Source of the DNA: a virus
Virus record (IMG/VR): IMGVR_UViG_3300027733_000030
Location: 96,001-160,000 of that record
Reading direction: 5' to 3' (one strand)
Length of the DNA: 64,000 bases
The notes beneath the pieces were generated by a model. The model made no database searches, was not told the DNA's origin, and worked only from the letters and a program-made list of their open reading frames with translations. Positions 1 to 57,122 of this stretch are shown piece by piece. A program made the translations under genes and the position numbers. The stretch's first letter is position 1. Every line of letters begins with the position of its first letter.

Positions 1-3000
1 AGCGAATGCAAATCCATAAATACCTGCCATTTCCTGCATTCTAAATCCAGCTTCTCCAGCTTGAAAAGAAGTAGCACTAGGCTCCAATGGAGCTCCCGCA
101 GCGACTATTCTTGGAGGCATGACTTTAGACATCTTTGGTGGTCCATAAGATAAATTAGCATATTGCGAGTTAACATCTTTAATTGAAGATCTAACCATGG
201 CCCCAGCTGCACCAGTACTTCCTGCCCTACTAGCTAGCATGGAGTTAGTGGAATATACGCCTGCAGCGCCCCCAATCGCACCAGGTGTAGGTGCACCACC
301 CCCTGTCATTTCAAAGCCACCAGGAGCTCCTCCGCGCGCGCTTGTGCCCATGCCAGCAGTGAATCCCACTCCATTTACATAACTAGGAGTTTGTGCGTAT
401 GCTGAGGCATCGTATGCGCCCGACTGTCCAGCTCTGACATAATTAGATAGCCCTTGTGCTGTTTCATTCTCATGCATTAATACTTGCGGTTTTAGGACTT
501 TTCCAATAGTCATATTTGCCAGTGGCACTAGTGGGCCAAATGGACCAGAGAAATATTCTCCAGTAACAGGATACGGCCTATCATCATGGTGTTTACGTTC
601 AAATCTATACGGATCTAAAGGTCTTAGCGGTGAAATATCATTGTAGAACAAAAACTTTTCTGCCGGACTACCGTAAGTATCACTTGTAAACATGGCTCCT
701 GCTTGAAGTTTACGGTACCATGAAGGCCTATAGTATTGAATCTTTCCACCTTTAAATGGAGTATTACCAAGTGGCCACCATCTACCCTGTCTGATTGGAA
801 CTTCGCCTTCAGTTAATTGCTTTTTCTTATCCTCATAACTCATTCCACCTGGAGCTATTCCAGCAGATAGCGATTGAAGTTCGACTGCACCTTTTGCAAC
901 CTGCCCAAGAACTAATGGAGAATATATTCTTTCTCCTCTTTCGTCTTTACCCTTGGTCATTCCGCCTAATGTTCTGTCTACCGTTAGGGCAGTGACTCCT
1001 GCTGCGTATAGTGGCAATACTCGTTTTCCGACCATACCTCTGGCAAATAGATCTAAGGGTCCTTTAAAGTCTGAAACATTTAATTGACCACCCAAAGTAC
1101 CAAAGTATCTATTTAATCTTTCAACACCTTGTGAGATAGGAACGCTTCCTAAGGAATAGCTTTGTGGATCAGAATATGTTGTTAGACCTACCGCACTTTT
1201 TATTGCTCCCATTGGATCTCTGCCAAAGACAGTCCCAAATGTGGGTACTACTGTAACGCTTTGTCCGGAACCCAACGCATCAACAGCTAGGTCATCAACA
1301 ACATGCCCGGCTGTTCCAAAAGCTTTTTTGCCCGCTGAGAATAATGGAGAGAATTTTTTACGAATACCACTACTAATTTGATTTATTTCACCCTTAGAGA
1401 AAGGATCAAAGGTTTTTTTTAAGCTTGCGTTTTTGCTAGAAATGCTAAACATTTCTGCTGCGCCTGCTCGAGCATTTTGTATGTTAGTAGCTGAGTGTTG
1501 GAATGTTTTAAACGCACTAATGTTAAACATGCTTGAAAGTGCTGCAGCTTGTGCCTCAACTCTTTGAGATGCGCTAATTACTCCACTCTTGACTAGTTTA
1601 TCAACAGCTGTCTGCATTTCGATAAAAATATCTGCAGAGCTTCCTCCGCCTAATTGCATCTGATTAGTCTGTGAAACATATCTGAATATTTCATTTTTTA
1701 ATTCGTCTAATCTAGTTGTAATCGTCGGAGACTTTTCAGCCATTTGAGACATTGAATTAAGATTAGTCTCTTGCATTAAACGTTGGATTCTTGATGAAGA
1801 TGTGCTTAAGAAAGTTGGATCTATTCCTTTTGCCCTTAATTGTTGAGCGGTTAAGTTTTGTGCTGCTAATAAATCTTCTGCAAATTTAGTTGCTTCCGTA
1901 CCAGATTGAATTGCACTAACTTTTCTTCCACCAAATGTAAACAAATCAGGTCTACTAGTTTCAAGTTCTTTAACTACTTCGCTAGGAGTTCCATATTGAA
2001 AAGCCTGTTTACGTAAAGATTGATACCCTCTTAAAATATCTGCTTCGGCAAAATCATCTACCGCATTCCCCAAATTATCAAATACACCAAGTTCACCGTT
2101 CTTGCCAGTAGATAATTTTAATATTTTTTCTTTTCCGCCAGAATTATATTTAACATCTTCACCAGATAATAGTCGAGACATAACACCATTGTTATTTAAA
2201 TCTGTTGAACGACCTTTAAATCTAGAAGCTAAATTAAACATAGAGTTTGGCTGCTCTGAGTCAATACTCATTTTTCTTTTAAAGCGTATTGCTCTTTCTC
2301 CGCCAAGAATTCTGTCTAAGAATTTTGAACCACTTGAATCTCTAATTTCATTAATAGTTTCGCCCTGCATGTTTGCTGCGTAGCGAGTATGTCTAGTTAA
2401 TAAGTCTGTAGTATTAGTTGGAATAGCTCTATAGGTTCCATTCATTACTGAACTATGCACTGCGTCAGATAAATTATCTGTCTGGAAAGACATTAACTTA
2501 CCCTTGGTTCCCTTAGTCTTGAACCACATATGGAAGTCTGCCTTACTCTGAGCTCCTTCCGGCATGAATGGCTGCACTGTTCTAGACGATACGTACTGCA
2601 GTGGTGATCGATTTGCCATCTCTGCAAATGATCTATAGCCAAATAAATCAGCTGGGTTGAATCCCAATATTGGAATTTTGAATTCTGATGCAAAGAAGTT
2701 TGCTGTTTTAGAGAAGGTTGACTTAACGGAGGTAAAGTCTAATATTTGACCCGATCTACTTTTGTATACTCCGTCAAGTTTACTGAATCCAATAGATTTA
2801 GATACTGGGTCGTTAATAGCCATTCGTGAAGCTAAGTCATGAATGACTTTCTGTTCCTCTGGTCTCATATGCGAGAATCGACCAGATTGACGAGCTTCGT
2901 CAATTGTTAAGGATTTTAATCCAAATAAGTTGTATCCACCACCAATGACACCAGAGGTCATTTGTCGGTTTTTAATTAAGAAACCTCTTAAATCAGTAAA

Positions 3001-4992
3001 TGCGTTAGGATCAAAACCACGATTCTTTAGTGCGCCAGTAACTACATCATTAGATACTTGGCGTCCGGCGTCGTCCGTTAATTTAATGCCTAGGGTCTGG
3101 GCTGTTTTTCTTTGTAGGAATTCTGTTTTAGCTGCGGTTTGTGGGCCAGTAAAATCATGATAAGACGCCTTCATAGGCTTCAGAATTCCACCACTAACTG
3201 TAGTTAAATCATCTCTATAAAATTTATTCCAATTTTTTTGGACCTTATTATTTAGACCTTTTTGAAATTCTTTAGAAGAGAATATATCTCTAGCATCTTC
3301 TACGGAAGCTCGAAGAGCATCTGGTTTAATTGCATCTTCAAAAGTTTTTCCACCAGAAATTCCACGATATCTTTTAATTATTTTTGCAAAGAAATCGTCA
3401 CTTAGATTCGCTGCGTCTGCGCCATCTTCATATATTCTAGTTTTACCAATTGTTATAATATTGGTACTATCCATATTTGCTTTTGGCATTCTGACTTTCA
3501 AATAGTCAGTAAATTGTTTGGCTTCCTTACCTTCTAACCCTCGTGAAATTAATTGATTTTCTAAAAGATCTTTAAAGGCATCGCGTTGATGACCATAGCC
3601 AAATTGAGATCTAGTAACAGCTCCATCACCAGGTCCTCCGCCACCCATGATTCTAACTCCTGTTGCAAGGTTTGATAGCCTACTGGAGTGCTGCGACTGG
3701 ATCCTCTCCATTGCCCCTTTAAGGGACTGTGCAGCGTCTGGAGTTCCACCCATAGCCTTTAATACGTTAGCGTGTGCTATTGAATTTTCTAGGGCATCAT
3801 AGCCTTGACCTAAAAGTGTAAATTCAGATTTACCTGCCTTAAAAGCTTCGGTCAATCCTCTAGTTCCAGGCATAAGGTCAAATACACTTTTTCCAGTGTT
3901 ATTCTTAAAAAGAGCTTTGAATCCCGCATTTTTGATTTGCGACCTAGATGCCCCTTGAGCAACAGCAGCTTCTTTGGCTTGTGTTACTCCATGTCTTAGA
4001 CTATAAAGGTTTTGTACAAAACCTTGTTGATTATCATAGGCTCTTGTAGCGGAACTTAAGGCTCCAGATGTTTGTGCCGAAGTCCTAAGGAATTTATTTG
4101 TTAGCGTTGCAAAGTCATGCCCTACGTCTGCTAAAGTTTCAGTTATATCAACAAAGCCTTTACTTAATTTTTTGTTGAATGGAGTGAGATTGCGCATATC
4201 ATTCATTGAATAGCGAAGACTATTTAATGAACTACTACTAGCAGATCCGGCAGCGCCTACAGCTTCAAATGGGGCAATCATTGTTGCCATCATAGTTAAA
4301 GATGATTTAGTAAAATCACTAATAACGTCTGCTGGGTTATACCATTTTACTTTTCTTTTTCCTTCTTCGCGATTACCAAAAATTGGATCAACAATTGCTT
4401 TTTGTGCACCGTACATTGCTGGAAGTTCATACGGCATTCTACGACCTGCGCGCACTAATCTTTGTTGCAATTCGTCCTTATAGGCCCATACTGCTGTAGG
4501 CTCACTTAAGAAGCCAGATCCTGCAAGATTTTTTTCTTCCTTAGTTAAATATTGGTAGCCAAATCTTTCGCTAATTTTTCCATCGTAACCAGTACTTAGT
4601 TTGCCAGATTTATCAAAAGCTACTAATTTGCCATATAAATCTTCACCACTATCAACAAACCTACTAACACCTTGGAGCTCGTCTAAATGACGACGAATTT
4701 GAGTTGCACTTTCCACTATTCGAGTTGCTAGTGGGTGACCTGCTTCTGAGGAAGTTTGCAGGAATTTTCCTAGTTTTAATCCGCCTTCTCTAGTTAACTT
4801 GGAGGCGACTGTAGCTGCCACCATAACTGTAGCAGTCGAGGCAAGAAACCTCATAATTGGGTGACCGTTTAGGGCGCGACTGACCATGCCGGAGTTTGGG
4901 GCTACGCCGTCAGATTCCCCTTCACCTACAGGAATATCTCTAGATGTTACGCCGTATCCTAAGTTTTGTATTGGTCCTGGATCGCGTATCAA
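1..4992 (-). CDS. Very large tape-measure-like or tail-associated virion protein (>1660 aa, truncated by the window edge)
   Basis: Not in the ORF track. TTG start at 4992 follows an AAGGAG RBS. I found no in-frame stop in the many lines I checked down to base 1 (sampled, not exhaustive). N-terminus MIRDPGPIQNLGYGVTSRD; Ala/Gly-rich helical composition. Lies directly downstream of tube and chaperone genes, the usual tape-measure position. Confidence 0.75.
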   Translation of the reverse strand, partial: MIRDPGPIQNLGYGVTSRDIPVGEGESDGVAPNSGMVSRALNGHPIMRFLASTATVMVAATVASKLTREGGLKLGKFLQTSSEAGHPLATRIVESATQIRRHLDELQGVSRFVDSGEDLYGKLVAFDKSGKLSTGYDGKISERFGYQYLTKEEKNLAGSGFLSEPTAVWAYKDELQQRLVRAGRRMPYELPAMYGAQKAIVDPIFGNREEGKRKVKWYNPADVISDFTKSSLTMMATMIAPFEAVGAAGSASSSSLNSLRYSMNDMRNLTPFNKKLSKGFVDITETLADVGHDFATLTNKFLRTSAQTSGALSSATRAYDNQQGFVQNLYSLRHGVTQAKEAAVAQGASRSQIKNAGFKALFKNNTGKSVFDLMPGTRGLTEAFKAGKSEFTLLGQGYDALENSIAHANVLKAMGGTPDAAQSLKGAMERIQSQHSSRLSNLATGVRIMGGGGPGDGAVTRSQFGYGHQRDAFKDLLENQLISRGLEGKEAKQFTDYLKVRMPKANMDSTNIITIGKTRIYEDGADAANLSDDFFAKIIKRYRGISGGKTFEDAIKPDALRASVEDARDIFSSKEFQKGLNNKVQKNWNKFYRDDLTTVSGGILKPMKASYHDFTGPQTAAKTEFLQRKTAQTLGIKLTDDAGRQVSNDVVTGALKNRGFDPNAFTDLRGFLIKNRQMTSGVIGGGYNLFGLKSLTIDEARQSGRFSHMRPEEQKVIHDLASRMAINDPVSKSIGFSKLDGVYKSRSGQILDFTSVKSTFSKTANFFASEFKIPILGFNPADLFGYRSFAEMANRSPLQYVSSRTVQPFMPEGAQSKADFHMWFKTKGTKGKLMSFQTDNLSDAVHSSVMNGTYRAIPTNTTDLLTRHTRYAANMQGETINEIRDSSGSKFLDRILGGERAIRFKRKMSIDSEQPNSMFNLASRFKGRSTDLNNNGVMSRLLSGEDVKYNSGGKEKILKLSTGKNGELGVFDNLGNAVDDFAEADILRGYQSLRKQAFQYGTPSEVVKELETSRPDLFTFGGRKVSAIQSGTEATKFAEDLLAAQNLTAQQLRAKGIDPTFLSTSSSRIQRLMQETNLNSMSQMAEKSPTITTRLDELKNEIFRYVSQTNQMQLGGGSSADIFIEMQTAVDKLVKSGVISASQRVEAQAAALSSMFNISAFKTFQHSATNIQNARAGAAEMFSISSKNASLKKTFDPFSKGEINQISSGIRKKFSPLFSAGKKAFGTAGHVVDDLAVDALGSGQSVTVVPTFGTVFGRDPMGAIKSAVGLTTYSDPQSYSLGSVPISQGVERLNRYFGTLGGQLNVSDFKGPLDLFARGMVGKRVLPLYAAGVTALTVDRTLGGMTKGKDERGERIYSPLVLGQVAKGAVELQSLSAGIAPGGMSYEDKKKQLTEGEVPIRQGRWWPLGNTPFKGGKIQYYRPSWYRKLQAGAMFTSDTYGSPAEKFLFYNDISPLRPLDPYRFERKHHDDRPYPVTGEYFSGPFGPLVPLANMTIGKVLKPQVLMHENETAQGLSNYVRAGQSGAYDASAYAQTPSYVNGVGFTAGMGTSARGGAPGGFEMTGGGAPTPGAIGGAAGVYSTNSMLASRAGSTGAAGAMVRSSIKDVNSQYANLSYGPPKMSKVMPPRIVAAGAPLEPSATSFQAGEAGFRMQEMAGIYGFAFA

Positions 4993-45608: not shown

Positions 45609-45926
45609 TTGAAAGGTTATTACCAGGTGGAATACCCCCAGCATAACGAAACAAATTCTATTCCTAATAAAACACCAAAACCAGTGGACATCAAAGAAGT
45701 GAATCGCGCATTAATAGTCTTACGTGAAAACTCAATCTCAATGCTCGACTTAATCGAAAAAGATCTTTATGATTTTTATTCAACGGATGTAGAAGTTATC
45801 AAGTTTGTTGATAAAGAACTTATGAAAAAAATTGTTCAATTCAAGCAAGATGTCAAGAACATTGTTGTATACTCTAAGAACCTGCAGACGATGCATGAAG
45901 AACAAGGAAGATTATTCTATGACTGA
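45609..45926 (+). CDS. Hypothetical protein
   Basis: 105-aa ORF overlapping the recA start. Confidence 0.55.
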   Translation: MKGYYQVEYPQHNETNSIPNKTPKPVDIKEVNRALIVLRENSISMLDLIEKDLYDFYSTDVEVIKFVDKELMKKIVQFKQDVKNIVVYSKNLQTMHEEQGRLFYD

Positions 45927-46944
45927 TGAATTCGATATGGAGACTGGCGAGATTCTTATTCCCGCAGCTAAAAAAGTTATTGATAAAGAAGAATCAAAAG
46001 TATTAGAACTCGCAATCGCACAACTTCAACGTCAATACGGAGCTGGATCAGTCGTTAGACTCGGCTCAACTAATATCAAACCATGGGACTCAATCTCCAC
46101 TGGAGCACTTACTTTGGATAGTGCACTTGGAATTGGTGGTTTCCCGCGCGGGCGCGTAGTAGAAATCTATGGACCTGAGTCATCAGGTAAGTCTACTCTC
46201 GCTCTAGCAACAGTAGCCAAGGCCCAGCAGATGGGCCTCACGTGCGCCTACATCGACGCTGAGCATGCTTTAGACCCAGTCTACATGCAAGCCGTAGGAA
46301 TCGATCTAGACAACCTTCTACTGGCTCAACCTGATTATGGCGAGCAAGGCTTCGACATTGCTGACAGACTCCTGCGCACAGGGGAAATTGGCGTCATCGT
46401 CATTGACTCAGTTGCAGCATTAGTTCCTAAAGCTGAGCTCGATGGCGAAATGGAACAAGCTCACATGGGCTTGCAGGCCCGTATGATGGCTAAAGCTATG
46501 CGTAAGCTTACTGGACTCGCTGCCCAGCACAACACTCTTATTATATTCATTAACCAGCTCCGCAACAAAATTGGAATCATGTTTGGTAACCCAGAGACTA
46601 CTCCTGGTGGAATGTCATTGAAGTTCTATGCTTCAGTCCGAATTGACGTCCGCAAAAAAGAAGATCTTAAGGACAAGGCCGGAAATCCAGTTGGCGTCAA
46701 AGTCAAAGCTAAGGTTATTAAGAATAAGATGGCACCCCCAATGAAAATCGTAGAGTTCGACATCATCTATGCTCAGGGTATCGACGAGTACGGATGTATC
46801 TTTGACATCGGAATCGACAAGGGTATCTTTACCCAAAAGGGCGCATGGGTCTACTATAATGGCGAGAACTTTGCCCAAGGTAGAGATAACGCTATTGAGA
46901 AGTTAAAGGCTTCTCCTGATATTGTAGGTGTGATCAAAGGCTAA
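45919..46944 (+). CDS. recA: RecA recombinase
   Basis: Likely start ATG 45919. GGFPRGRVVEIYGPESSGKST, IDAEHALDP, VIDSVAALVPKAE, FINQLR, GNPETTPGG..LKFYASVR. Confidence 0.97.
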   Translation: MTDEFDMETGEILIPAAKKVIDKEESKVLELAIAQLQRQYGAGSVVRLGSTNIKPWDSISTGALTLDSALGIGGFPRGRVVEIYGPESSGKSTLALATVAKAQQMGLTCAYIDAEHALDPVYMQAVGIDLDNLLLAQPDYGEQGFDIADRLLRTGEIGVIVIDSVAALVPKAELDGEMEQAHMGLQARMMAKAMRKLTGLAAQHNTLIIFINQLRNKIGIMFGNPETTPGGMSLKFYASVRIDVRKKEDLKDKAGNPVGVKVKAKVIKNKMAPPMKIVEFDIIYAQGIDEYGCIFDIGIDKGIFTQKGAWVYYNGENFAQGRDNAIEKLKASPDIVGVIKG

Positions 46945-48630: not shown

Positions 48631-48858
48631 TTATTATACATACCTAGTAGGGTAGGTATGGAGAAGGTGGTTCCTCAGGATCTTATGATTCTGGGGAACT
48701 TCCTTTTTTGAGGATAGGTCATTGTCCTTTAGTAAGGTTCGCCATGGGCCAACGGGTTCACCTCCCGCCAAAAGGTAGACATGGAAGATGGTTTTACCAT
48801 TCGTAATAATCACGTTCAATACGTTAAGTTGAACAAAGGCATGTTTCTAGGAGGAATC

Positions 48859-49128
48859 ATGTTGTCATTCATCAGTAAGAAGGTCACATTCATTGTGGCT
48901 GCAATTGTTGCAGTGTTGTTGGTATTGGAGCCAACAACCGACTTGACAATGGCAGCATTGCGCTTGCCAAGCAAGTTTGTTTGGATGCTCTTGGGCCTCC
49001 TCTTCAGTATCGTTAACTGGGGAATGCTGATCCTTATCGCCATTGGTTTTGGCATTGGATTCATCATTAAGACCCGGACCATTGACTGGTCTGAAGTTAA
49101 GGGTTTCTTCAACAAAGAAGAAGCCTAA
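48859..49128 (+). CDS. Small membrane protein
   Basis: GGAGG RBS before ATG 48859; two to three hydrophobic helices. Confidence 0.65.
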   Translation: MLSFISKKVTFIVAAIVAVLLVLEPTTDLTMAALRLPSKFVWMLLGLLFSIVNWGMLILIAIGFGIGFIIKTRTIDWSEVKGFFNKEEA

Positions 49129-49252
49129 TTAAAAGGGGGTGATGGTCCACCTCTTTAATAAAGAAGAAGGTTGTTTCCCCTGGGGCATTTGCCTTGGGGG
49201 AAACTTCTTTTTTTGAGGATAGATCAATGGGATCAGTCCAAGAAAGGAAACC

Positions 49253-49498
49253 ATGGAAAGAGGTACGTACACGTATCGGACACTCAGGGGTAATGACCTG
49301 GTGTTCCAGGTTGGAGGAAGCATGACGTATTGTCGTGTTTTCAGCCAACAAGGTGAGCTGGTCCACTACTATGGATCAGTTACACCTCCCAAGGTCAGTG
49401 AACAGGATGGTCAAACCATCGTCCTGTTTGAGGACTTTGAGGATGGATCGCGACGCCTTCATGGTGTTGCAATCCGTCCAGTCATTACCTTAGCGTAG
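49253..49498 (+). CDS. Hypothetical protein
   Basis: AAAGGA RBS; between repeat copies 2 and 3. Confidence 0.65.
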   Translation: MERGTYTYRTLRGNDLVFQVGGSMTYCRVFSQQGELVHYYGSVTPPKVSEQDGQTIVLFEDFEDGSRRLHGVAIRPVITLA

Positions 49499-49647
49499 TG
49501 GCTAGACAAAGGGTAGCGTCTTACCTTGCATACTAGCAAAGACGCACCATAGAAGAAGTTGTTCCCGGGGATTTCGGTCCTCGGGAACTTCTTTTTTTGA
49601 GGATAGGGGAAAGGCCCCTAGCTCATTCTCTTGAAAGGGGAATTGTT

Positions 49648-49791
49648 ATGAGTCAAACATACGAATGTGCAGAAGGAATGTGTCAGGATGTAGTGTCCTG
49701 GTCACTATCCGGGGTGCTTGCAGCAGCGGGCATCGTAATCATCACTGTGTTCGTTGTTACGGTGATCATCGGAGAAATCCGACGCAAATAG
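49648..49791 (+). CDS. Single-pass membrane peptide
   Basis: AAAGGGG RBS, MSQTYECAEGMC..., one hydrophobic helix and an RRK tail. Confidence 0.55.
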   Translation: MSQTYECAEGMCQDVVSWSLSGVLAAAGIVIITVFVVTVIIGEIRRK

Positions 49792-49922
49792 GAAAGTAAG
49801 TTAGTAGAAGGTTTGTTCCCGGGGATTTCGGTCCTCGGGAACTTCCTTTTTTTGGCATAGGCGCTAGGCCTCTAGCTACAGTCAACTAACACTGTTGTAA
49901 AAAGTTAGTAAGAAAGGTAATC

Positions 49923-50126
49923 ATGTCAAAAGGACCATGGGAGGAAAACTCCATGTGGACTCCGGATCTCCAAGATTCGGAGCTTGCTACGGATGTAGCC
50001 CATACATGTTTGAGGTGTCAAGAACTGGAAGCTGAATTAGAAAAGTGGAAGGACACGGCGCGTACATGGATGTGGACAGCTGCAGACGCATCAGGTGTGG
50101 ACATATCGGATGCGTTAGACAATTGA
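49923..50126 (+). CDS. Hypothetical protein
   Basis: AAAGG RBS; CLRCQELEAELEKWK coiled coil. Confidence 0.6.
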   Translation: MSKGPWEENSMWTPDLQDSELATDVAHTCLRCQELEAELEKWKDTARTWMWTAADASGVDISDALDN

Positions 50127-50274
50127 GCAATGCTCACACCAAGGAGTAGTGATCCTATACATACTTATATAATTCACTAAAGAAGGAGGTTCTCGGGAGA
50201 TATTTCCCGGGAACTTCCTTTTTTTGAGGATAGACCGCCGGTCAATCTCACCAGCTGATGGAGGTCAGCAAACT

Positions 50275-50451
50275 ATGAAACATAAACCAACTCTAGGATA
50301 TTTTAATATCCTCGATTGGGAGATGGATAAGATTGCATGCAAGTCATGCAGTGCTGTCTTGGTCTCTCAAGGAAGTCAAATATGTGACTCATTTATAGGA
50401 AAGGATCTTATCTGTCCTATTTGCGAGTTGGACATTGACGACGCACAATAG
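50275..50451 (+). CDS. Small zinc-finger protein
   Basis: GGAGG RBS; CKSC...CPIC. Confidence 0.6.
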   Translation: MKHKPTLGYFNILDWEMDKIACKSCSAVLVSQGSQICDSFIGKDLICPICELDIDDAQ

Positions 50452-50788
50452 TAATAGTCAATGAATAAGTAAGTAAAAGAAGGTCGTCCCTGGGGAGAAA
50501 TCCCTGGGGACTTCCTTTTTTTGCCGATAGATCGTTGGCCCTTAAACAGGAGGTAGAAATGTAATGAATATCACCGTTGTTGAAACGGTGGGATATTCCA
50601 TTGTTTATGGAGAATCCTACCATTTAGTAATAATAGACCCTTCTCTACCCCCCGCCTAGGAGTATTGCTTACTGACCTTAGATTCCTTTTTTTGACGATA
50701 GGCCATTGGCCTTTAGTCACACGTAAGGTTCCACGCCAGGGCCAACAGTATGTGCTCTGTAGAAAAGCACACAGAAAGGGAGGGAGAG

Positions 50789-53188
50789 ATGTCATATTTC
50801 CATGGCATTGTGGTCCTCGCTGGAAGGTGGCTTCGGCTGCTGACTGGTGCAGACCATGTCCCGGGTACCACCGTCAAAGAAGAGTTTCAGGGAGGACAAT
50901 ATGTCCCCGCGTTCCTGGAGCACTTCTGGGCAGGTCGGTACCGCGTCGAGGTGCGTAAGCTGTTCAGCCGTAAGGTTGGATCGTTGGAAAGCGCACCTGC
51001 CGTCACCAATAAGGAGCTGTTCTCTAGCGAAGTAATTCGTTGGAGCAACTCCTCGGACCAGTACATGTTGCGCATTAAGGGCAACAATGGCTGGCTTGCT
51101 AGCTTCAAGGAAATCGGTCTTCTGATCGCTAACTCCAAGAAGATGAGCAAGAGGTTAGTAGAACTCGTGCGCATGTCGTGCATGTGGCTCTACATACCCG
51201 AGGACAAAGCCCTTGAGGTTGACGTCATCGATCACAAAGCGTTGGGCATGCCTGACGAATATGTGGACGGTGCGACGTTCATCACCCGTGGGCTCGCAAT
51301 CAAGTGCGTGAAGTCGAATACTTCGGCAACACGTGCTTGGCGGGCTCGGATGATCTGGAACATTCGCAATGGCAGTCTTGTCGTTGTGCAGTTCCGGATG
51401 CTCTGCGCGCTTGGAGAGATCAAAGGCAATGCCGTGATCACTCCTCGTAAGCAGATGCAAGGCTACGAAGTTCGGACGTTTGCGCCGAATATCAAGGCTG
51501 AGATCCGAACCACTGGGTGGCAATGGGTCACATTGGAGCCGTCTTACGGGACGATTCCAGTGAAGTCTGACGATCTGACACATTCCATTTACTGGGATGT
51601 TAAGGGTCTGTATGACCACGACTCACTCCTGGCATGCCTGGAATCCTCTTTGAAGCAATTCAAGGAGGACTTGGTGGCTGGCAAACGCTCTGAATGGATG
51701 GAGAAACTCGCTGAAAGCAGTGGGTCTATCCTACATGAAGAGTCGGAGGTAAAGTATGCAAAGGATCGTGGCCTAGTTGGCAGGATTCAGCATGCGGTTG
51801 CTCAACTTAGTAAGTTGGGTGTACCTCTACACGCCAGTCAAACCCTGATGTTCCTCTCGGTCAATGGTTTGCGAAAGCAGCTGTTGGGCGACAATCGTCA
51901 GGGTGAGGTGTGGATGGACAAGTCTCGTCACTGGTTTCCAGTGTCGTGGGCTTATGCCGCTCACATCTATACCAAGGAAGTCCTCGAAATCGGTGGGTTT
52001 AAGATGCCCACTGGTAACGAAGGCTTCTTCCATGAGGCTACCCACAGCTTCGTGGTACCTGGCCAGTTCTTGAAGGATAACTTTGAGAACTGGGGAGGTC
52101 CTGACTTGGATGATACTGTAAAGGTGCATGTGCGCCGAGTATCAGACAAACAGGGCAAGGTCAAGTTGATGGGAATTGTCATGCGCAATCCGAATGATTT
52201 CGGTGAGTATGCGATGATTCCACTCAACGAAACCGGACCAATATTCCACGACTATGGTGCTGAGCCCCCGCTGGTGGATCTGCAGGAACTATCTAGTAAG
52301 GTTCCGCAGTTCACAAAGCTGAAGAAGCATCTGAACATCGGATCTCTTCCGGCGATCACTAATCCACGTAAGCGTGGTGACGTGTTCTCGCTGGAGGATG
52401 AGTCGGCTGTTCGGCTTGCATCACAGGCTTTTCCACCAGGAATGGGCGGAACGGTCATCCCAAAGATGATCTGGTACGCTCAGTTCGGGAAGCCCATTGA
52501 GGAGTTGGTTGCAACTAACGAAGACATCGTTGATGTTCTTCAGCAGGGGCAAGCTTCTCTGGAGGATGTGCAGTTGATCAAGCAATGGATCGACAACACA
52601 TTCACCACAATGGGCGAAAAGCTCAACTGGGAAATGGACCGCTTCTGGTTCATGACCCGGATGCCAGCACCGTTGGCAGAGTTATGGGAAACCTCATCCG
52701 AGGAAGTATCGCCTTGGGTCACACTCCATAAGGAGCGTGAGAACCTTGTGCGTCAGTACATTAAGGAAATGACGGATTGGCTGAATAGTCAAGTCGTTAT
52801 GCCCGAAGTGCTGGCAAACATCAACTGGACTCCAGAAGAGCGCGCAAACGCTTGGAGGGAACTCCAGAAGATCAAAGAGGTTCATCAAGCAGCTCGAAAC
52901 AGTAGTCTCACCTGGTGTGATTACTTCGTAGAGCTGATGACCAAGAGCGATGAAGAGCATGGTAAAGAACGTACTGATCGTAAGATCTTGCGTTTGGCAC
53001 ACCAAGCCATCCTCGCGAAGGCTCAAACGCCAGGAGCAAACCATGATCAGTGGCTGTTCTCGTTCAACGCTAAGAGCGAAATGCAACCGTACATGTTCTA
53101 TGTGCGTGCTCTCAAGCGTGTTCAAGACGGAACCTATTCATGGTTGCCCGCATCAGCAAGTCCGATTATTGAGGACATAGGGAGCTGA
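50789..53188 (+). CDS. Putative single-subunit two-barrel (YonO / cellular-RdRP-like) RNA polymerase with an atypical catalytic loop
   Basis: Likely start ATG 50789 after GGGAGGGAG (799 aa). YVDGATFITRGLA resembles the RdRP DG.G.IS..LA motif; QFRMLCALGEIKG resembles Q.R..G.KG; SFVVPG...WGGPDLDD resembles VVFP...SG.DLDGD; MRNP follows. Confidence 0.65.
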   Translation: MSYFHGIVVLAGRWLRLLTGADHVPGTTVKEEFQGGQYVPAFLEHFWAGRYRVEVRKLFSRKVGSLESAPAVTNKELFSSEVIRWSNSSDQYMLRIKGNNGWLASFKEIGLLIANSKKMSKRLVELVRMSCMWLYIPEDKALEVDVIDHKALGMPDEYVDGATFITRGLAIKCVKSNTSATRAWRARMIWNIRNGSLVVVQFRMLCALGEIKGNAVITPRKQMQGYEVRTFAPNIKAEIRTTGWQWVTLEPSYGTIPVKSDDLTHSIYWDVKGLYDHDSLLACLESSLKQFKEDLVAGKRSEWMEKLAESSGSILHEESEVKYAKDRGLVGRIQHAVAQLSKLGVPLHASQTLMFLSVNGLRKQLLGDNRQGEVWMDKSRHWFPVSWAYAAHIYTKEVLEIGGFKMPTGNEGFFHEATHSFVVPGQFLKDNFENWGGPDLDDTVKVHVRRVSDKQGKVKLMGIVMRNPNDFGEYAMIPLNETGPIFHDYGAEPPLVDLQELSSKVPQFTKLKKHLNIGSLPAITNPRKRGDVFSLEDESAVRLASQAFPPGMGGTVIPKMIWYAQFGKPIEELVATNEDIVDVLQQGQASLEDVQLIKQWIDNTFTTMGEKLNWEMDRFWFMTRMPAPLAELWETSSEEVSPWVTLHKERENLVRQYIKEMTDWLNSQVVMPEVLANINWTPEERANAWRELQKIKEVHQAARNSSLTWCDYFVELMTKSDEEHGKERTDRKILRLAHQAILAKAQTPGANHDQWLFSFNAKSEMQPYMFYVRALKRVQDGTYSWLPASASPIIEDIGS

Positions 53189-53549
53189 CGCAGTACTCCT
53201 TGAGATAGGAGAACATCCTAGTTAGGTTTACATAACTAACTGGAAGAAGGATGCCCCTGGGATTCAGTAGAAATACTGTTTCCTGGGGGCTACCCTTATA
53301 AAATTAATTTGCTATGAACGAGGTAGCTCTCGTCTGCGACATTGAAAGCAGTACCTGTGGGATTAAAAAGACCGCTAAATGAGGAGGTTGTTGGGAAGAA
53401 ATTCCTGGCAACCTCCTTTTTTTGAGGATAGTTCACTAGCCTCAAGCGCAGAACCTGAGCGCTCTATAAAGTATGGGTGACGCTGCAGGAGCTAAATCCT
53501 GACAGGAATTCCAACCTTGACAAATGGAATCAGCCAAGGAGGCACAAAA

Positions 53550-53918
53550 ATGGAAGCAATCAAGACAGCAAAGGATGGCCGTCAGTACACGGTCATCAAT
53601 GGCAAAGCAGTCTTCATCAAGGGTTCAAAGCCCGTGGTGAAAGCTGCTGTCGAGATGGCACCGGCACCAACGCCAGCACAGACCAAGGGCATTGCCTGCG
53701 GTAATTGCAGTGGCAAGCACAGCACTGTTCAAGAAGTGCGCGCATGCTTTGGCGTGACCGTCGTCAACACCAAGTGGACAGCTCGTCCTACTGCAGTTAT
53801 TACTGACCTTGACAAGAAAGTCATGGTTACCTGTGGTTGGGGCAAGGCAAGCCACAAGGTCGAGATGACCAAGGCCGATGCCATTGCATTCCGCAACACC
53901 TGCGAGCAGCATCGCTGA
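53550..53918 (+). CDS. Hypothetical protein with a CxxC-x2-H-x7-C motif
   Basis: AAGGAGG RBS before ATG 53550; CGNCSGKHSTVQEVRAC. Confidence 0.65.
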   Translation: MEAIKTAKDGRQYTVINGKAVFIKGSKPVVKAAVEMAPAPTPAQTKGIACGNCSGKHSTVQEVRACFGVTVVNTKWTARPTAVITDLDKKVMVTCGWGKASHKVEMTKADAIAFRNTCEQHR

Positions 53919-53920
53919 TC

Positions 53921-54151
53921 ATGGCTTACAACCATCACAATCAGCACTGCGGTCTCAGGGCAGATGGTTGCGAAGGTTTCATCTTCAAGGGCAATGGGCG
54001 ATTCGTCGCTTACCCCTACAAGATGCTCCTTTGCGCCAGCTGTTACGAGACATGGTTGCAGCGGAATTCCGAAGGTAAGAAGAAGGCGTCTGACAAGCGC
54101 AATCTCAAGAACCTTCGAGACAGCCAGCCCACACTCTTCGACCAGGAGTGA
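53921..54151 (+). CDS. Small Cys/His-rich protein
   Basis: ATG 53921 directly after the previous stop; CGLRADGC...CASC. Confidence 0.55.
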   Translation: MAYNHHNQHCGLRADGCEGFIFKGNGRFVAYPYKMLLCASCYETWLQRNSEGKKKASDKRNLKNLRDSQPTLFDQE

Positions 54152-54245
54152 GCTGAAGAAGACTGAAGTCCCACTACACATCAAGTGTAGGAGGGACTTC
54201 TTTCTTTGAGGATAGACTATTCGGGTCAGTCCACAAACGAAAGGA

Positions 54246-55010
54246 ATGATCATGTACAAACCATTCAAAGAAGGGTGTGATCACGAAATGACAGAACCAT
54301 CTGCTATTGGAGGCAAAAACATAGGCCTTGAATGGGAGATAGTTAATCATTGGAGCCACTGCACAAAATGCTGGGGCACCAAAGTGACGCAAGAAATGCT
54401 GTGGATCGGAGAGGGTCCAGATCCCCGAAATGAGGAGGAAAGTGCTATGGACAAACCATTGTATAAGGTAGCCTTTACAGGTCATCGCCCCAACAAAATT
54501 GGGGGATACAATGCAAAGACACCAATGCGTGTTGCTGTTACTGAAGCCATTAACAACGCTCTTGCACGAGCAGTGGCCAAGTATGGTGAGACACATGAAG
54601 TGGTTGTCATCAGTGGAGGCGCTCTTGGCGTTGATACCGATGCAGCACGGGAGGCTCATAAGATGGGTCTTCGGTTCATGATTGCAGCACCTTGCCGAAA
54701 TCAGGACATTAAATGGCCTGCTGAAAGCAAGTTGACCTACAAGAAGATGTGCGGATTTGCAGATGCAGATCTAGCTCGTACTCTTGCTAGCGACGGTGAA
54801 ACTATTGAAGACGGTGTTATATACGTCTACAATGGTGAATACACCACGGCAAAGGTCATGCAGGACAGGAACATCTGGATGGTAGATCACGCTGACAGTG
54901 TGGTTGCTATTTGGGATGGCACGTCTGGTGGCACGGGAAACTGTGTGGGTTATGCTCGCAACAAGCAAAAGCCCATGGTTGTAATCAACCCCACTAAGCT
55001 GCTTAGTTAA
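54246..55010 (+). CDS. SLOG-superfamily protein (YspA/DUF1273-like)
   Basis: VAFTGHRP, ISGGALGVD, RN.WMVDHAD.VVAIWDG.SGGT.NCV.YA. An alternative start at ATG 54447 has a GAGGAGG RBS. Confidence 0.85.
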   Translation: MIMYKPFKEGCDHEMTEPSAIGGKNIGLEWEIVNHWSHCTKCWGTKVTQEMLWIGEGPDPRNEEESAMDKPLYKVAFTGHRPNKIGGYNAKTPMRVAVTEAINNALARAVAKYGETHEVVVISGGALGVDTDAAREAHKMGLRFMIAAPCRNQDIKWPAESKLTYKKMCGFADADLARTLASDGETIEDGVIYVYNGEYTTAKVMQDRNIWMVDHADSVVAIWDGTSGGTGNCVGYARNKQKPMVVINPTKLLS

Positions 55011-55326
55011 TAGTTTAGTAAGTTATCGAAAGGTTGTTCCCGGGGAGAAATCCTCGGGGACTTCCTTTTTTATCATAGACCATTACACTTAAATTCTTTT
55101 TTTATGATAGGCACTTATTCTAAATCCCTCCGTGGATTGGGATAGGTTCCTAGTCCAGTTCTCTTTGCCTGTATTCTAAATCCCTCTGGGAGCATGCTGG
55201 CAAAAAGAAGGGGTTGTTTCCTTCCATAAAAAGAAGGGAGCAGTCCCCCCAGAGCATCTTCTGGGTAATAAAAAAGAAGGGTGACAATCCCGTCATCCGT
55301 CCAACGCATCAAAAGGAGAATATACC

Positions 55327-55725
55327 ATGCGTTTCATAGTTGCTAAACTCGGCATTGTTTCCGAGAAAACTGGAAAGACTCAAGTTGTCTTTCTGCCCGA
55401 AAACCAAGATGCCCCTGTTTGGGTGTCTGCTTGGTTGGCTACCTCGTTCGTTGAAGAGCAGGTTGTGCCCGGCGTCGAAATCCTCGCGGAATCGGCGTCG
55501 CTAACCAAGTTGGAAACGTCGTACGAAAAGGACGGCGTTGTTGTGGGGTTGAAGTCCCCTCGTCGTTCGGTCATCTTCGGTGGTACAGTTTCGGCTGTTG
55601 CCCCAGAAGGTAACCCGTTGCCCGAAGTCGTCTATGCTAAGTCTGAATCTACTTCGGCTTACGTTCAGGCGTTTCGTGCTAAGCAGGCAATGAAGTCTGC
55701 AGATTTGGGTACTGACTCGTTCTGA
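55327..55725 (+). CDS. Hypothetical protein (beta-rich, possibly OB-fold)
   Basis: AAAGGAG RBS; strongly biased codons; followed by a terminator. Confidence 0.65.
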   Translation: MRFIVAKLGIVSEKTGKTQVVFLPENQDAPVWVSAWLATSFVEEQVVPGVEILAESASLTKLETSYEKDGVVVGLKSPRRSVIFGGTVSAVAPEGNPLPEVVYAKSESTSAYVQAFRAKQAMKSADLGTDSF

Positions 55726-55751
55726 GTCTTGTGCCGTACTTTGTCCGTTTC

Positions 55752-55800
55752 GCGGGCTCACCTCAGAGTAATATCTGGGGTGGGCTCGCCTTATTTTTTA
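55752..55800 (+). terminator. Intrinsic terminator
   Basis: GCGGGCTCACCTCAGA/TCTGGGGTGGGCTCGC 16-bp stem with G-U pairs, then TTATTTTTT. Confidence 0.75.
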
Positions 55801-56010
55801 ACGCCCTGTCTCAGGACCCCTCGCTTCGCTCGGGATCGCTGAGCCAGTGCGGGCTTCGCCAATATGGTGAAGTCATATCTTTTTTTAAAATAGAACCTAG
55901 ATCCTAGGTATCTATTCTAAATTTTTAAAATAGAATAGTAGATTAATCTATTGTTCAAACAAAAAAGAAGGGGAGTAATCCCACCAACAAAAGCCCTAAG
56001 GAGGCACACA

Positions 56011-56337
56011 ATGCACACATTAGGAATCATCCTAATCGGAATGGCCTTAGGTATAGCTATGCTGTATCTAACTAATTTCATTGTCAGTAAAGCAAATGCT
56101 CGTCTTAACTATGGACAGAAGGTCCGTTTTGAAAGCGAAGTCATTGGACATATTTCAGTTTGTCGTTATCACGGCGTCAAGAAGTATTTCTTCACAACAA
56201 AGAACTTTGGGCCATTAAACCCTACTTCTTTCTATGAACGTGAAGATGCAATCTCAGCATGTCGCAAAGCTCATCTTGATGAAATGCTCAAAGAACAAGC
56301 TGAACGTCCTAAGCAAACATCGTTTCCAAGAGCGTAA
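56011..56337 (+). CDS. Hypothetical protein with an N-terminal transmembrane helix
   Basis: AAGGAGG RBS before ATG 56011. Confidence 0.65.
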   Translation: MHTLGIILIGMALGIAMLYLTNFIVSKANARLNYGQKVRFESEVIGHISVCRYHGVKKYFFTTKNFGPLNPTSFYEREDAISACRKAHLDEMLKEQAERPKQTSFPRA

Positions 56338-56567
56338 ATTCTTGGTTAGCCTTCTTGCGGGCTATTCCTCTCAGAAGGAATCAAGGGATTGGATCATATG
56401 ATCCTCTCCCAGCAACCAATCTTCCCTCCCAGGTTGAGCGTCCTTGCCATATACCCCCCTTTCGTATGGTAAGGATGCTCCCTGAGGGAGTTTATAGATC
56501 TTTGGTAATAACTTTTTTTTAAAAAAATAGATCTCTTCTAAAAAGAAGGGTTAGTAAAAGGAGAAAA

Positions 56568-56750
56568 ATGAATAAAATTACACTAAAAGTAATGATGGCA
56601 GTATATGCCGGATCATTCCTTGCTGGATTCATCTACGCATTCGGCACAGAAATGCAAAAACAAAAGATGGAAATCAAACATACTCCATCAATTGAATTCC
56701 AAAATCTAGTCAACCACTACAACAACAAACAGAAAGAGAAAGTGTCATGA
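56568..56750 (+). CDS. Small membrane protein
   Basis: AAAGGAG RBS; one hydrophobic helix. Confidence 0.6.
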   Translation: MNKITLKVMMAVYAGSFLAGFIYAFGTEMQKQKMEIKHTPSIEFQNLVNHYNNKQKEKVS

Positions 56751-56950
56751 AAATCGTACAAACAGCCGGAAAACTCTTCGGCAAAACCGTAGCCGTCAGT
56801 AAGAATGCGCCTTCAAAGACTGTCAAAGTCAGCAAAGCTGCATCCTCAAAGACCAAGAAGGCTCTTGTAAATGCAAAAGATGACTTGGTCGCCGGCTTCA
56901 ATCAAGGTGCACAACGGACTTCAGATTCTGACGTCATTGACATCAAGTAA
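56747..56950 (+). CDS. Small basic protein
   Basis: Lys/Ala/Ser-rich; ATGA overlap with the previous gene; followed by a terminator hairpin. Confidence 0.6.
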   Translation: MKIVQTAGKLFGKTVAVSKNAPSKTVKVSKAASSKTKKALVNAKDDLVAGFNQGAQRTSDSDVIDIK

Positions 56951-57122
56951 TAAAACCTTTGTTGGGAGTATAGCAACATCGCTATGCTCTCAACAAAAAA
57001 ATTTACAATAGTATTCTAAAACTATTGTGAACATAGAAAAAGAAGGGACTTGACAAATGTCATATCCCAAATAATCAAAAGTAATTACATCCCCATTAAA
57101 CACCTAACAGAAAGATATACTT

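What the first reader, a model, noticed from the sequence alone, without database searches (positions are those of the whole stretch)
50789..53188. Divergent single-chain two-barrel RNA polymerase candidate with a non-canonical, apparently reordered active site
Seen: in order, YVDGATFITRGLA, VQFRMLCALGEIKGNAV, then about 260 aa later SFVVPG...WGGPDLDDTV and, about 25 aa after that, VMRNPND. Established: cellular RdRPs (QDE-1/RDR6 type) and phage YonO-like RNAPs have DG.G.IS..LA and Q.R..G.KG in the first double-psi barrel, and a (K/R)xP motif before the DxDGD catalytic loop in the second. Inference: this is a member of that superfamily in which the loop is DxDD (no Gly) and RNP comes after the Asp loop, suggesting a circularly permuted second barrel or a new subfamily. 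It may transcribe phage DNA or copy RNA. No other RNA polymerase or sigma factor is visible in the window.
Basis: partly seen in the sequence, partly recalled or inferred. Interest (0 to 1): 0.85.

Follow-up and report, generated by a model that had tools for sequence, protein, structure and literature searches.

The report
Phage RNA polymerase, rewired catalytic barrel
An unannotated gene of an uncultured freshwater phage encodes a one-chain relative of the cellular RNA polymerase core in which the metal-binding loop is one residue short and two strands of the catalytic barrel are encoded out of their usual order; it is probably the middle enzyme of a three-polymerase transcription relay.

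Summary
Observation confirmed. ORF 50789-53188 (799 aa) has no Pfam, PHROG or PDB sequence hit. Its AlphaFold model (pLDDT 91) matches QDE-1, RDR2 and P23-45 gp64/gp96. D439/D441/D442, R466-x-P468, K212 and D582 are invariant in 150 homologs down to 16% identity. RxP follows the Asp loop in all 265 homologs that span it; 259 read DxDD and 6 read DxDGD. Coevolution, a barrel-only fold search and a segment-swap test against canonical 0305phi8-36 gp99 agree on strand order 1-2-5-6-3-4. Hairpin-T-GAGGATAG repeats cluster up to and just past this gene; AAAAAGAAGGG lies only between it and paralog B. Best model: an early DNA-dependent RNA polymerase in a phage relay, like P23-45 but with three enzymes. 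Activity, template and promoter use are inferred, not shown. No paper describing the family was found. This scan noted the same family earlier in other genomes.

The parts
50789..53188 (+). Single-chain two-barrel RNA polymerase-like gene (paralog A), 799 aa
51173..51541 (+). Barrel B (residues ~129-251), canonical double-psi barrel with D160-G161, R203, K212, K236
   Evidence: Free DPBBs align here over ~80 of 86 residues; conservation
51938..52225 (+). Catalytic barrel A (residues 384-479), inferred strand order b1-b2-b5-helix-b6-b3-b4
52094..52114 (+). GGPDLDD loop (D439, D441, D442): DxDD in place of DxDGD
   Evidence: Invariant; 259 DxDD and 6 DxDGD among homologs
52184..52192 (+). R466-N-P468, the RxP (ribose-selecting) motif, after the Asp loop
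   Evidence: Invariant; aligns to RSP of gp99 after the swap
52532..52534 (+). D582 (EDIVD), invariant; probably the equivalent of eukaryotic RdRP motif 7 (from recall, not shown by alignment)
48663..50530 (+). Six class I elements (variable strong hairpin, T6-7, GAGGATAG-like, often a second small hairpin), one between each small early gene: T-runs at 48703, 49207, 49591, 49846, 50218, 50515
50660..50713 (+). Class I element directly upstream of the polymerase gene (GACGATAG variant, weak first hairpin)
   Evidence: a copy sits ~90-105 nt before the gene in most 45-94% relatives
53381..55110 (+). Last class I elements (53416, 54198, 55065, 55096), with a YspA/SLOG gene (54246-55010) among them
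55202..57047 (+). Six class II motifs AAAAAGAAGGG (55202, 55228, 55271, 55962, 56540, 57037); candidate promoters read by this enzyme
   Evidence: 6 found vs 0.07 expected; in 3 relatives nearly all copies lie between paralog A and paralog B
1..4992 (-). Giant tail-module (tape-measure-like) ORF running off the window; in the sister genome the next gene is the 1622-aa paralog C with GGFDLDD...RQP

Best explanation
The gene encodes an active, single-chain, DNA-dependent RNA polymerase of the two-barrel superfamily (QDE-1/YonO/gp64 branch). Barrel B supplies D160, R203, K212 and K236. Barrel A keeps its six strands, but the chain threads them 1-2-5-helix-6-3-4, so the ribose-sensing Arg466 is encoded after the Mg-binding loop, and the loop binds metal with DxDD. 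Shown: fold similarity, invariant residues, motif order. Strongly inferred: the strand order. Inferred: catalysis. In the phage life cycle (inferred) it is the middle step of a relay. A tail-module paralog C is injected and reads the class I hairpin-T-GAGGATAG units near the presumed genome end, which include this gene. This enzyme (A) then reads the class II AAAAAGAAGGG block, which ends in paralog B. B serves later genes. Odds by step: two-barrel fold 0.97; transposed hairpin 0.85; active DNA-dependent RNAP 0.8; this exact promoter assignment 0.5.
For: Model pLDDT 90.8. Foldseek: QDE-1 E=1e-7, RDR2, gp64. VIA Z 13.1 to RDR2 (rmsd 5.9, 581 aligned), Z 9.3 to gp62 (rmsd 5.2, 405 aligned), Z 7.4 to gp96. 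Atlas features point to PF05183 clusters. Invariant acidic and basic set. Coevolving pairs fit b1-b6, b1-b5 (parallel register), b2-b5, b6-b3, b3-b4 and Asp-loop-b4. In the barrel-only model, free DPBBs span their whole chain but align only to residues 386-451, 52 of 86 residues, leaving the RxP hairpin out; barrel B aligns ~80 residues. Moving 457-482 back restores the alignment to canonical gp99 only at 416-419 (score 23.8 vs 17.5 elsewhere, shuffled maximum 15.5). Six homologs have a full DxDGD and still RxP after it. The RxP Arg marks rNTP-using enzymes and is replaced in PolD (PMC7708050). Gene position near the presumed genome end with a YspA neighbour mirrors 0305phi8-36 gp99. Two motif blocks each end at a polymerase gene. 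No sigma70 region 2 in five related genomes, and no excess of sigma70-like promoters in the region.
Against: No activity data for any member. No model coordinates, so the convergence of the residues on a metal site was not measured. The DxDxD spacing is described as universal (PMC7708050, PMC10770324), so DxDD could bind metal poorly. The barrel-only Z-scores are low (2-3) and serve only as range evidence. Coevolution depth is modest (Meff 121). The swap test rests on one canonical sequence; the same test with a YonO profile gave no clear peak. No transcription start sites are known. Class I elements also continue for 2 kb after the gene, and one relative (G005) lacks exact class II copies.
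Confidence: 0.72

Rival explanations
1. Same active DNA-dependent RNAP, but it reads the class I hairpin-T-GAGGATAG elements itself (self-amplifying loop after priming by host or virion RNAP), or the motifs are not promoters (class I only terminators, class II RNA leader or factor sites).
For: Class I elements surround the gene on both sides and have strong terminator-like hairpins with T-runs. An RNA contig of a relative covers a class II motif and the 40 nt before it, although contigs cannot show starts.
Against: The gene itself sits behind a class I element, so another enzyme must act first. The TTGACG in that copy has no good -10 partner. Sequence conserved downstream of the T-run is not needed for termination. 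Class II is confined between paralogs A and B in three genomes.
Confidence: 0.12
2. An RNA-templated or primer-making enzyme: it copies the short cassette RNAs like eukaryotic RdRPs, or primes DNA replication.
For: The best structural matches are RDR2 and QDE-1, and QDE-1 uses both RNA and DNA templates (PMC2950127 abstract).
Against: All characterised phage members of this branch (YonO, gp64, gp96) are DNA-dependent transcriptases (PMC5467207; bioRxiv 2022.12.01.518664). Three paralogs, each tied to a motif block or the tail module, fit transcription. There is no replication-gene neighbourhood next to the gene.
Confidence: 0.08
3. A catalytically dead or repurposed polymerase fold (nucleic-acid binding, or an NAD/ADP-ribose counter-defence role with the NADAR and SLOG neighbours).
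For: The metal loop is non-canonical. NADAR/SLOG domains are fused to, or lie next to, many homologs.
Against: Exactly the expected catalytic residues are the invariant ones across 16% identity, in all three paralogs, and DxDD and DxDGD interchange within the family.
Confidence: 0.05
4. The barrel is a true circular permutant, or R466-x-P is a convergent motif in an unrelated extra hairpin.
For: Sequence similarity to canonical barrels is weak, and the YonO swap test was noisy.
Against: b1-b2 still come first and match gp99 b1-b2. The native segment order ACB is not a rotation of ABC, and the rotated orders score no better than native. The RxP segment is followed by a conserved G-E strand that covaries with the Asp loop, as b4 should.
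Confidence: 0.1

Closest known systems
Thermus phage P23-45 gp64 (non-virion RNAP; PDB 8F72, P74-26 gp62 8F5M) with gp96 (tape-measure-fused virion RNAP)
   Same: Single-chain two-barrel fold (Z 9.0-9.3 and 7.4). Non-virion RNAP gene in a pre-early block near the genome end, a tail-module paralog, and two motif classes (bioRxiv 2022.12.01.518664).
   Different: P23-45 enzymes have DxDxD and a conserved DPBB-A. Here the loop is DxDD with a transposed hairpin, there are three paralogs, paralog C is a separate gene next to (not fused with) the tape-measure-like gene, and identity is 8-13%.
Neurospora QDE-1 and plant RDR2 (cellular RdRPs, PF05183; PDB 2J7N, 7Y7T, 7W84)
   Same: Best whole-chain structural match (Foldseek E 1e-7; Z 10-13, 480-600 aligned). 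Same DG, QxR, KG and later Lys motifs in the first barrel.
   Different: Canonical DxDGD with KxP/RxP before it; eukaryotic RNA silencing role; no PF05183 HMM hit here; 9-12% identity.
Bacillus phage 0305phi8-36 gp99 (ABS83659.1; YonO-like, annotated by PF05183, not assayed)
   Same: Related ~219-kb myovirus (major capsid 38% identical). RNAP gene just inside the terminal repeat with a YspA/DUF1273 gene two genes downstream. Barrel segments align after the swap.
   Different: gp99 has the canonical order RSP...GGADTDGD. No rewired-family match in that genome or in three other cultured relatives (an empty search without a positive control).
SPbeta YonO
   Same: About 800-aa single-chain two-barrel DNA-dependent RNAP whose Asp triad is essential (PMC5467207).
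   Different: Canonical RSP...DNDGD order; no significant profile similarity; transcribes late genes and has no paralog relay.

Membership tests
Two-barrel polymerase superfamily | Two six-stranded barrels forming one catalytic core | tested here: met
   Model-level: whole-chain matches to RDR2, QDE-1, gp64, gp96 and phi14:2 gp66; six strands in the second barrel
Two-barrel polymerase superfamily | Basic/accessory residues in the first barrel (DG, QxR, two Lys) | tested here: met
   D160, G161, R203, K212, K236 invariant or >90% conserved
Two-barrel polymerase superfamily | Three conserved Asp in the loop before strand 6 of the catalytic barrel | tested here: met
   D439, D441, D442 invariant
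Two-barrel polymerase superfamily | DxDxD/DxDGD spacing of the triad | tested here: not met
   DxDD in the query and in 259 of 265 homologs; DxDGD in 6
Two-barrel polymerase superfamily | Canonical double-psi strand order 1-2-3-4-5-6, RxP before the Asp loop | tested here: not met
   RxP after the loop in all homologs; order 1-2-5-6-3-4 inferred
Two-barrel RNA (not DNA) polymerases | RxP arginine for ribonucleotide selection (PHT in PolD) | tested here: met
   R466 and P468 invariant; role from PMC7708050
Two-barrel polymerase superfamily | Three Asp and the Arg converge on one Mg site | tested here: inconclusive
   No coordinates available; only indirect coevolution of W435 with E473/A475
Two-barrel polymerase superfamily | Mg-dependent, template-directed NTP incorporation | not testable with these tools
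   Needs biochemistry
YonO-like / PF05183 RdRP family | Significant profile match to PF05183 or YonO | tested here: not met
   No Pfam hit at E<0.1; hhalign to YonO family probability 0.24%; only language-model features and fold point there
P23-45-type virion/non-virion RNAP relay | Paralogous RNAP in the tail module | tested here: met
   In the sister genome and 4 other relatives; lies outside this window
P23-45-type virion/non-virion RNAP relay | Distinct conserved motifs upstream of successive gene blocks | tested here: met
P23-45-type virion/non-virion RNAP relay | Virion packaging of paralog C; each motif is a promoter of a given enzyme | not testable with these tools
   Only contigs available, no 5' ends; no cultured member found
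Eukaryotic cellular RdRP (QDE-1/RDR) | RNA-templated synthesis in a silencing pathway | not testable with these tools
   Phage context gives no support

The most novel reading that the evidence does not exclude
A widespread family of phage RNA polymerases is active with a non-circularly rewired catalytic barrel (one psi-loop replaced by hairpins) and a DxDD metal loop, and these lake phages run a three-enzyme relay (injected C, then A, then B), each non-virion gene closing a block marked by its own promoter motif. It would be a natural exception to both the motif and the topology regarded as universal in two-barrel polymerases.
Probability: 0.45. Interest if true: 0.88.

Novelty: new variant of a known kind. 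Interest (0 to 1): 0.74.

Why it matters
The catalytic double-psi barrel and its DxDxD loop are treated as the invariant core of all cellular transcription. A natural family of several hundred proteins that keeps the catalytic residues but changes the strand order and the loop spacing tests which features catalysis really needs. It also gives a living example of barrel re-threading, relevant to how these ancient folds arose. The family is missed by DxDxD and Pfam searches, so phage-encoded transcription is under-counted. An 800-residue enzyme with an 11-bp candidate promoter is easy to express and assay.

Tried and rejected
Sequence searches found nothing: Pfam, PHROGs, PDB sequences with single sequence and profiles; cultured-phage tblastn with three family members; GTDB genomes; four cultured relatives with the family profile (no positive control). 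YonO profile comparison and swap scan were uninformative. The barrel-only wide fold search gave no Z above 3.1, which does not show a new fold. Circular permutation was rejected. A sigma70 promoter at the TTGACG copy upstream of the gene (lead from e1-5802470) was not supported: no matching -10. My first idea, that class I repeats are this enzyme's own promoters, was demoted after the paralogs and the class II block were found. The RecA look-up did not identify a host. Rfam gave only two tRNAs. Metatranscriptome contigs over the gene are short and of low depth and cannot exclude DNA. Ten paper searches found no description of a DxDD or reordered two-barrel RNAP; the library lacks most subscription papers. 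No complex prediction was run (the dimer exceeds the size limit). The tree is midpoint-rooted and dropped two paralog C rows, so it gives no direction for the DxDD/DxDGD change.

Full report
Observation. The window is part of a large contractile-tailed phage: tail sheath, capsid, portal and terminase genes lie on the minus strand to the left, and small genes lie on the plus strand to the right of about 48 kb, where GC skew flips. The major capsid protein is 38-44% identical to those of Bacillus phage 0305phi8-36 and its kin. Runs that hold the stretch are freshwater metagenomes. Four complete relatives carry WhiB genes, which suggests an actinobacterial host (inference).

Family and conservation. 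The protein has no Pfam, PHROG or PDB sequence match. It has 134 homologs at the 90% level and 277 at the 50% level by profile. In 150 of them, spanning 16-91% identity, the only invariant columns are G161, K212, D439, D441, D442, R466, P468 and D582; D160, R203, K236 and E473 are above 90%. Of 265 homologs that span the loop, 259 read DxDD and 6 read DxDGD, and all have RxP after the loop, mostly 25-58 residues on. The DxDGD forms fall in at least two separate, well-supported places in the tree. So the two spacings interchange, and the reordering does not depend on loss of the Gly.

Fold. The AlphaFold model has pLDDT 90.8 and pTM 0.86. Foldseek ranks QDE-1 (E 1e-7), RDR2 and P23-45 gp64 first. 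VIA gives RDR2 Z 13.1 (rmsd 5.9, 581 aligned), QDE-1 Z 10.2, gp62/gp64 Z 9.3/9.0 and gp96 Z 7.4. Stand-alone double-psi barrels align only to residues 129-251, over about 80 of 86 residues. From the QDE-1 structure paper (PMC1750930), the first barrel supplies Gln and two Lys and the second the Asp triad, which fits R203-region/K212/K236 and D439/D441/D442. The RxP arginine selects ribonucleotides and is absent from PolD (PMC7708050), so invariant R466 argues for RNA synthesis.

How the second barrel is rearranged. The model has strands at 384-395, 412-415, 420-423, a helix, the Asp loop, then strands 443-452, 458-466 and 474-479. Three tests bear on their identity. (1) Coevolution in 219 sequences (Meff 121) gives 390-445 and 392-443 (b1-b6), 394-420 and 396-422 (b1 parallel to b5, the psi-loop crossing), 412-421 (b2-b5 hairpin), 446-462 (b6-b3), 459-478 and 461-476 (b3-b4), and 435-473/475 (Asp loop to b4). 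(2) With the barrel folded alone (pLDDT 93), designed and natural DPBBs align from their first to their last strand onto residues 386-451 only, with about 52 of 86 residues matched. Two strands are thus missing in the middle and two are left over at the end. The Z-scores are low, so only the ranges count. (3) 0305phi8-36 gp99 has the canonical order. Moving segment 457-482 back into the family profile improves the alignment to gp99 only when it is placed at 416-419, the b2-b5 turn (score 23.8, E 5e-4, against 17.5 elsewhere and 15.5 for the best shuffled target). RxP and the Asp loop then align together. The YonO version of this test was noisy. The order is therefore 1-2-5-helix-6-3-4: the b3-b4 hairpin has been transposed, which is not a circular permutation. 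I could not measure distances in the model.

Genomic role. Two repeated elements flank the gene. Class I is a variable strong hairpin, a T-run and GAGGATAG, often with a small second hairpin. About eleven copies punctuate the small genes from 48.7 to 55.1 kb, one of them about 90 nt before this gene. Relatives of 45-58% identity have the same layout with ATGGGTAG, concentrated in this block. Class II is AAAAAGAAGGG: six copies at 55.2-57.0 kb against 0.07 expected. In three near-complete relatives it occurs, with one exception, only between this gene and a second paralog about 15 kb downstream, the last copy 65-95 nt before that paralog. A third paralog of 1246-1659 aa, with xxFDLDD and RQP, follows a giant tape-measure-like gene. 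In the sister genome (94% polymerase, 96% capsid identity) it starts about 1.6 kb beyond the point matching this window's left edge. Earlier first-reader notes on this genome report both paralogs just outside the window (not readable here). None of five related genomes has a sigma70 region 2. In 0305phi8-36 a canonical YonO-like gene holds the same position near the genome end, with the same YspA neighbour.

Mechanism. By analogy with P23-45, where a tail-borne RNAP transcribes pre-early genes including the non-virion RNAP and each uses its own motif (bioRxiv 2022.12.01.518664), the simplest reading is a relay. Injected paralog C reads class I units, each a terminator followed by a promoter, and so makes this enzyme. 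This enzyme reads class II and makes paralog B. B serves later genes. The fold, conservation, motif order and motif distribution are shown. The strand order is strongly inferred. Catalysis, template and promoter assignment are inferred. I reached the relay reading after earlier scan notes pointed to the paralogs, and then tested it on five genomes.

Novelty. The protein works like a YonO/gp64-type single-chain RNAP but fails two features treated as defining: DxDxD spacing and canonical barrel order. It is a new variant of the two-barrel superfamily, not a member of PF05183 or the YonO family by profile. Ten literature searches found no description. The scan has recorded this family in at least four other genomes; those notes are not independent evidence.

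Noticed in passing
window:57123-58500 +: The 343-aa gene of unknown function and the non-coding stretch after it are covered by high-depth contigs (100-600) from relatives in three river metatranscriptomes. The 58.2-58.8 kb stretch may be a structured RNA; Rfam has no match.
   Followed up: partly
window:54246-55010 +; homologs P0105, P0112, loci L052, L053: A YspA/SLOG gene follows the polymerase. In other clades SLOG and NADAR domains are fused to the polymerase N-terminus, or NADAR is the next gene, suggesting co-expressed ADP-ribose counter-defence.
   Followed up: partly
window:47900-48250: Strand switch and GC-skew reversal between structural and early genes; probably the genome end or terminal-repeat junction, as in 0305phi8-36.
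   Followed up: no
L003:13483-13570: Four tandem 25-nt copies of the class II motif directly after the polymerase region in a 58%-identical relative; the window has three close copies at 55202-55281.
   Followed up: no
window:55117-57020 +: TATTCTAAA occurs about 25-50 nt upstream of several class II motifs; it may be a second promoter element.
   Followed up: no
window:59330-59362 and 60082-60113 +: Two similar G/C-run hairpins (GGGGGGGCCC...GGGGGGTAC) in intergenic DNA; function unknown.
   Followed up: no
window:43812-45257 - and 45832-46944 +: Phage-encoded ClpB/C-like ATPase domain and a bacterial-type RecA next to the early region.
   Followed up: partly
window:38058-41579 -: 1173-aa protein with only a weak DNA-polymerase exonuclease-like match.
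   Followed up: no
window:62486-62562 and 62854-62927 +: tRNA-Arg(TCT) and tRNA-Asn(GTT).
   Followed up: yes
L045 (G003:165300-168882 -): In one relative, paralog C appears split into a 338-aa N-terminal gene and a 1358-aa polymerase-containing gene.
   Followed up: no
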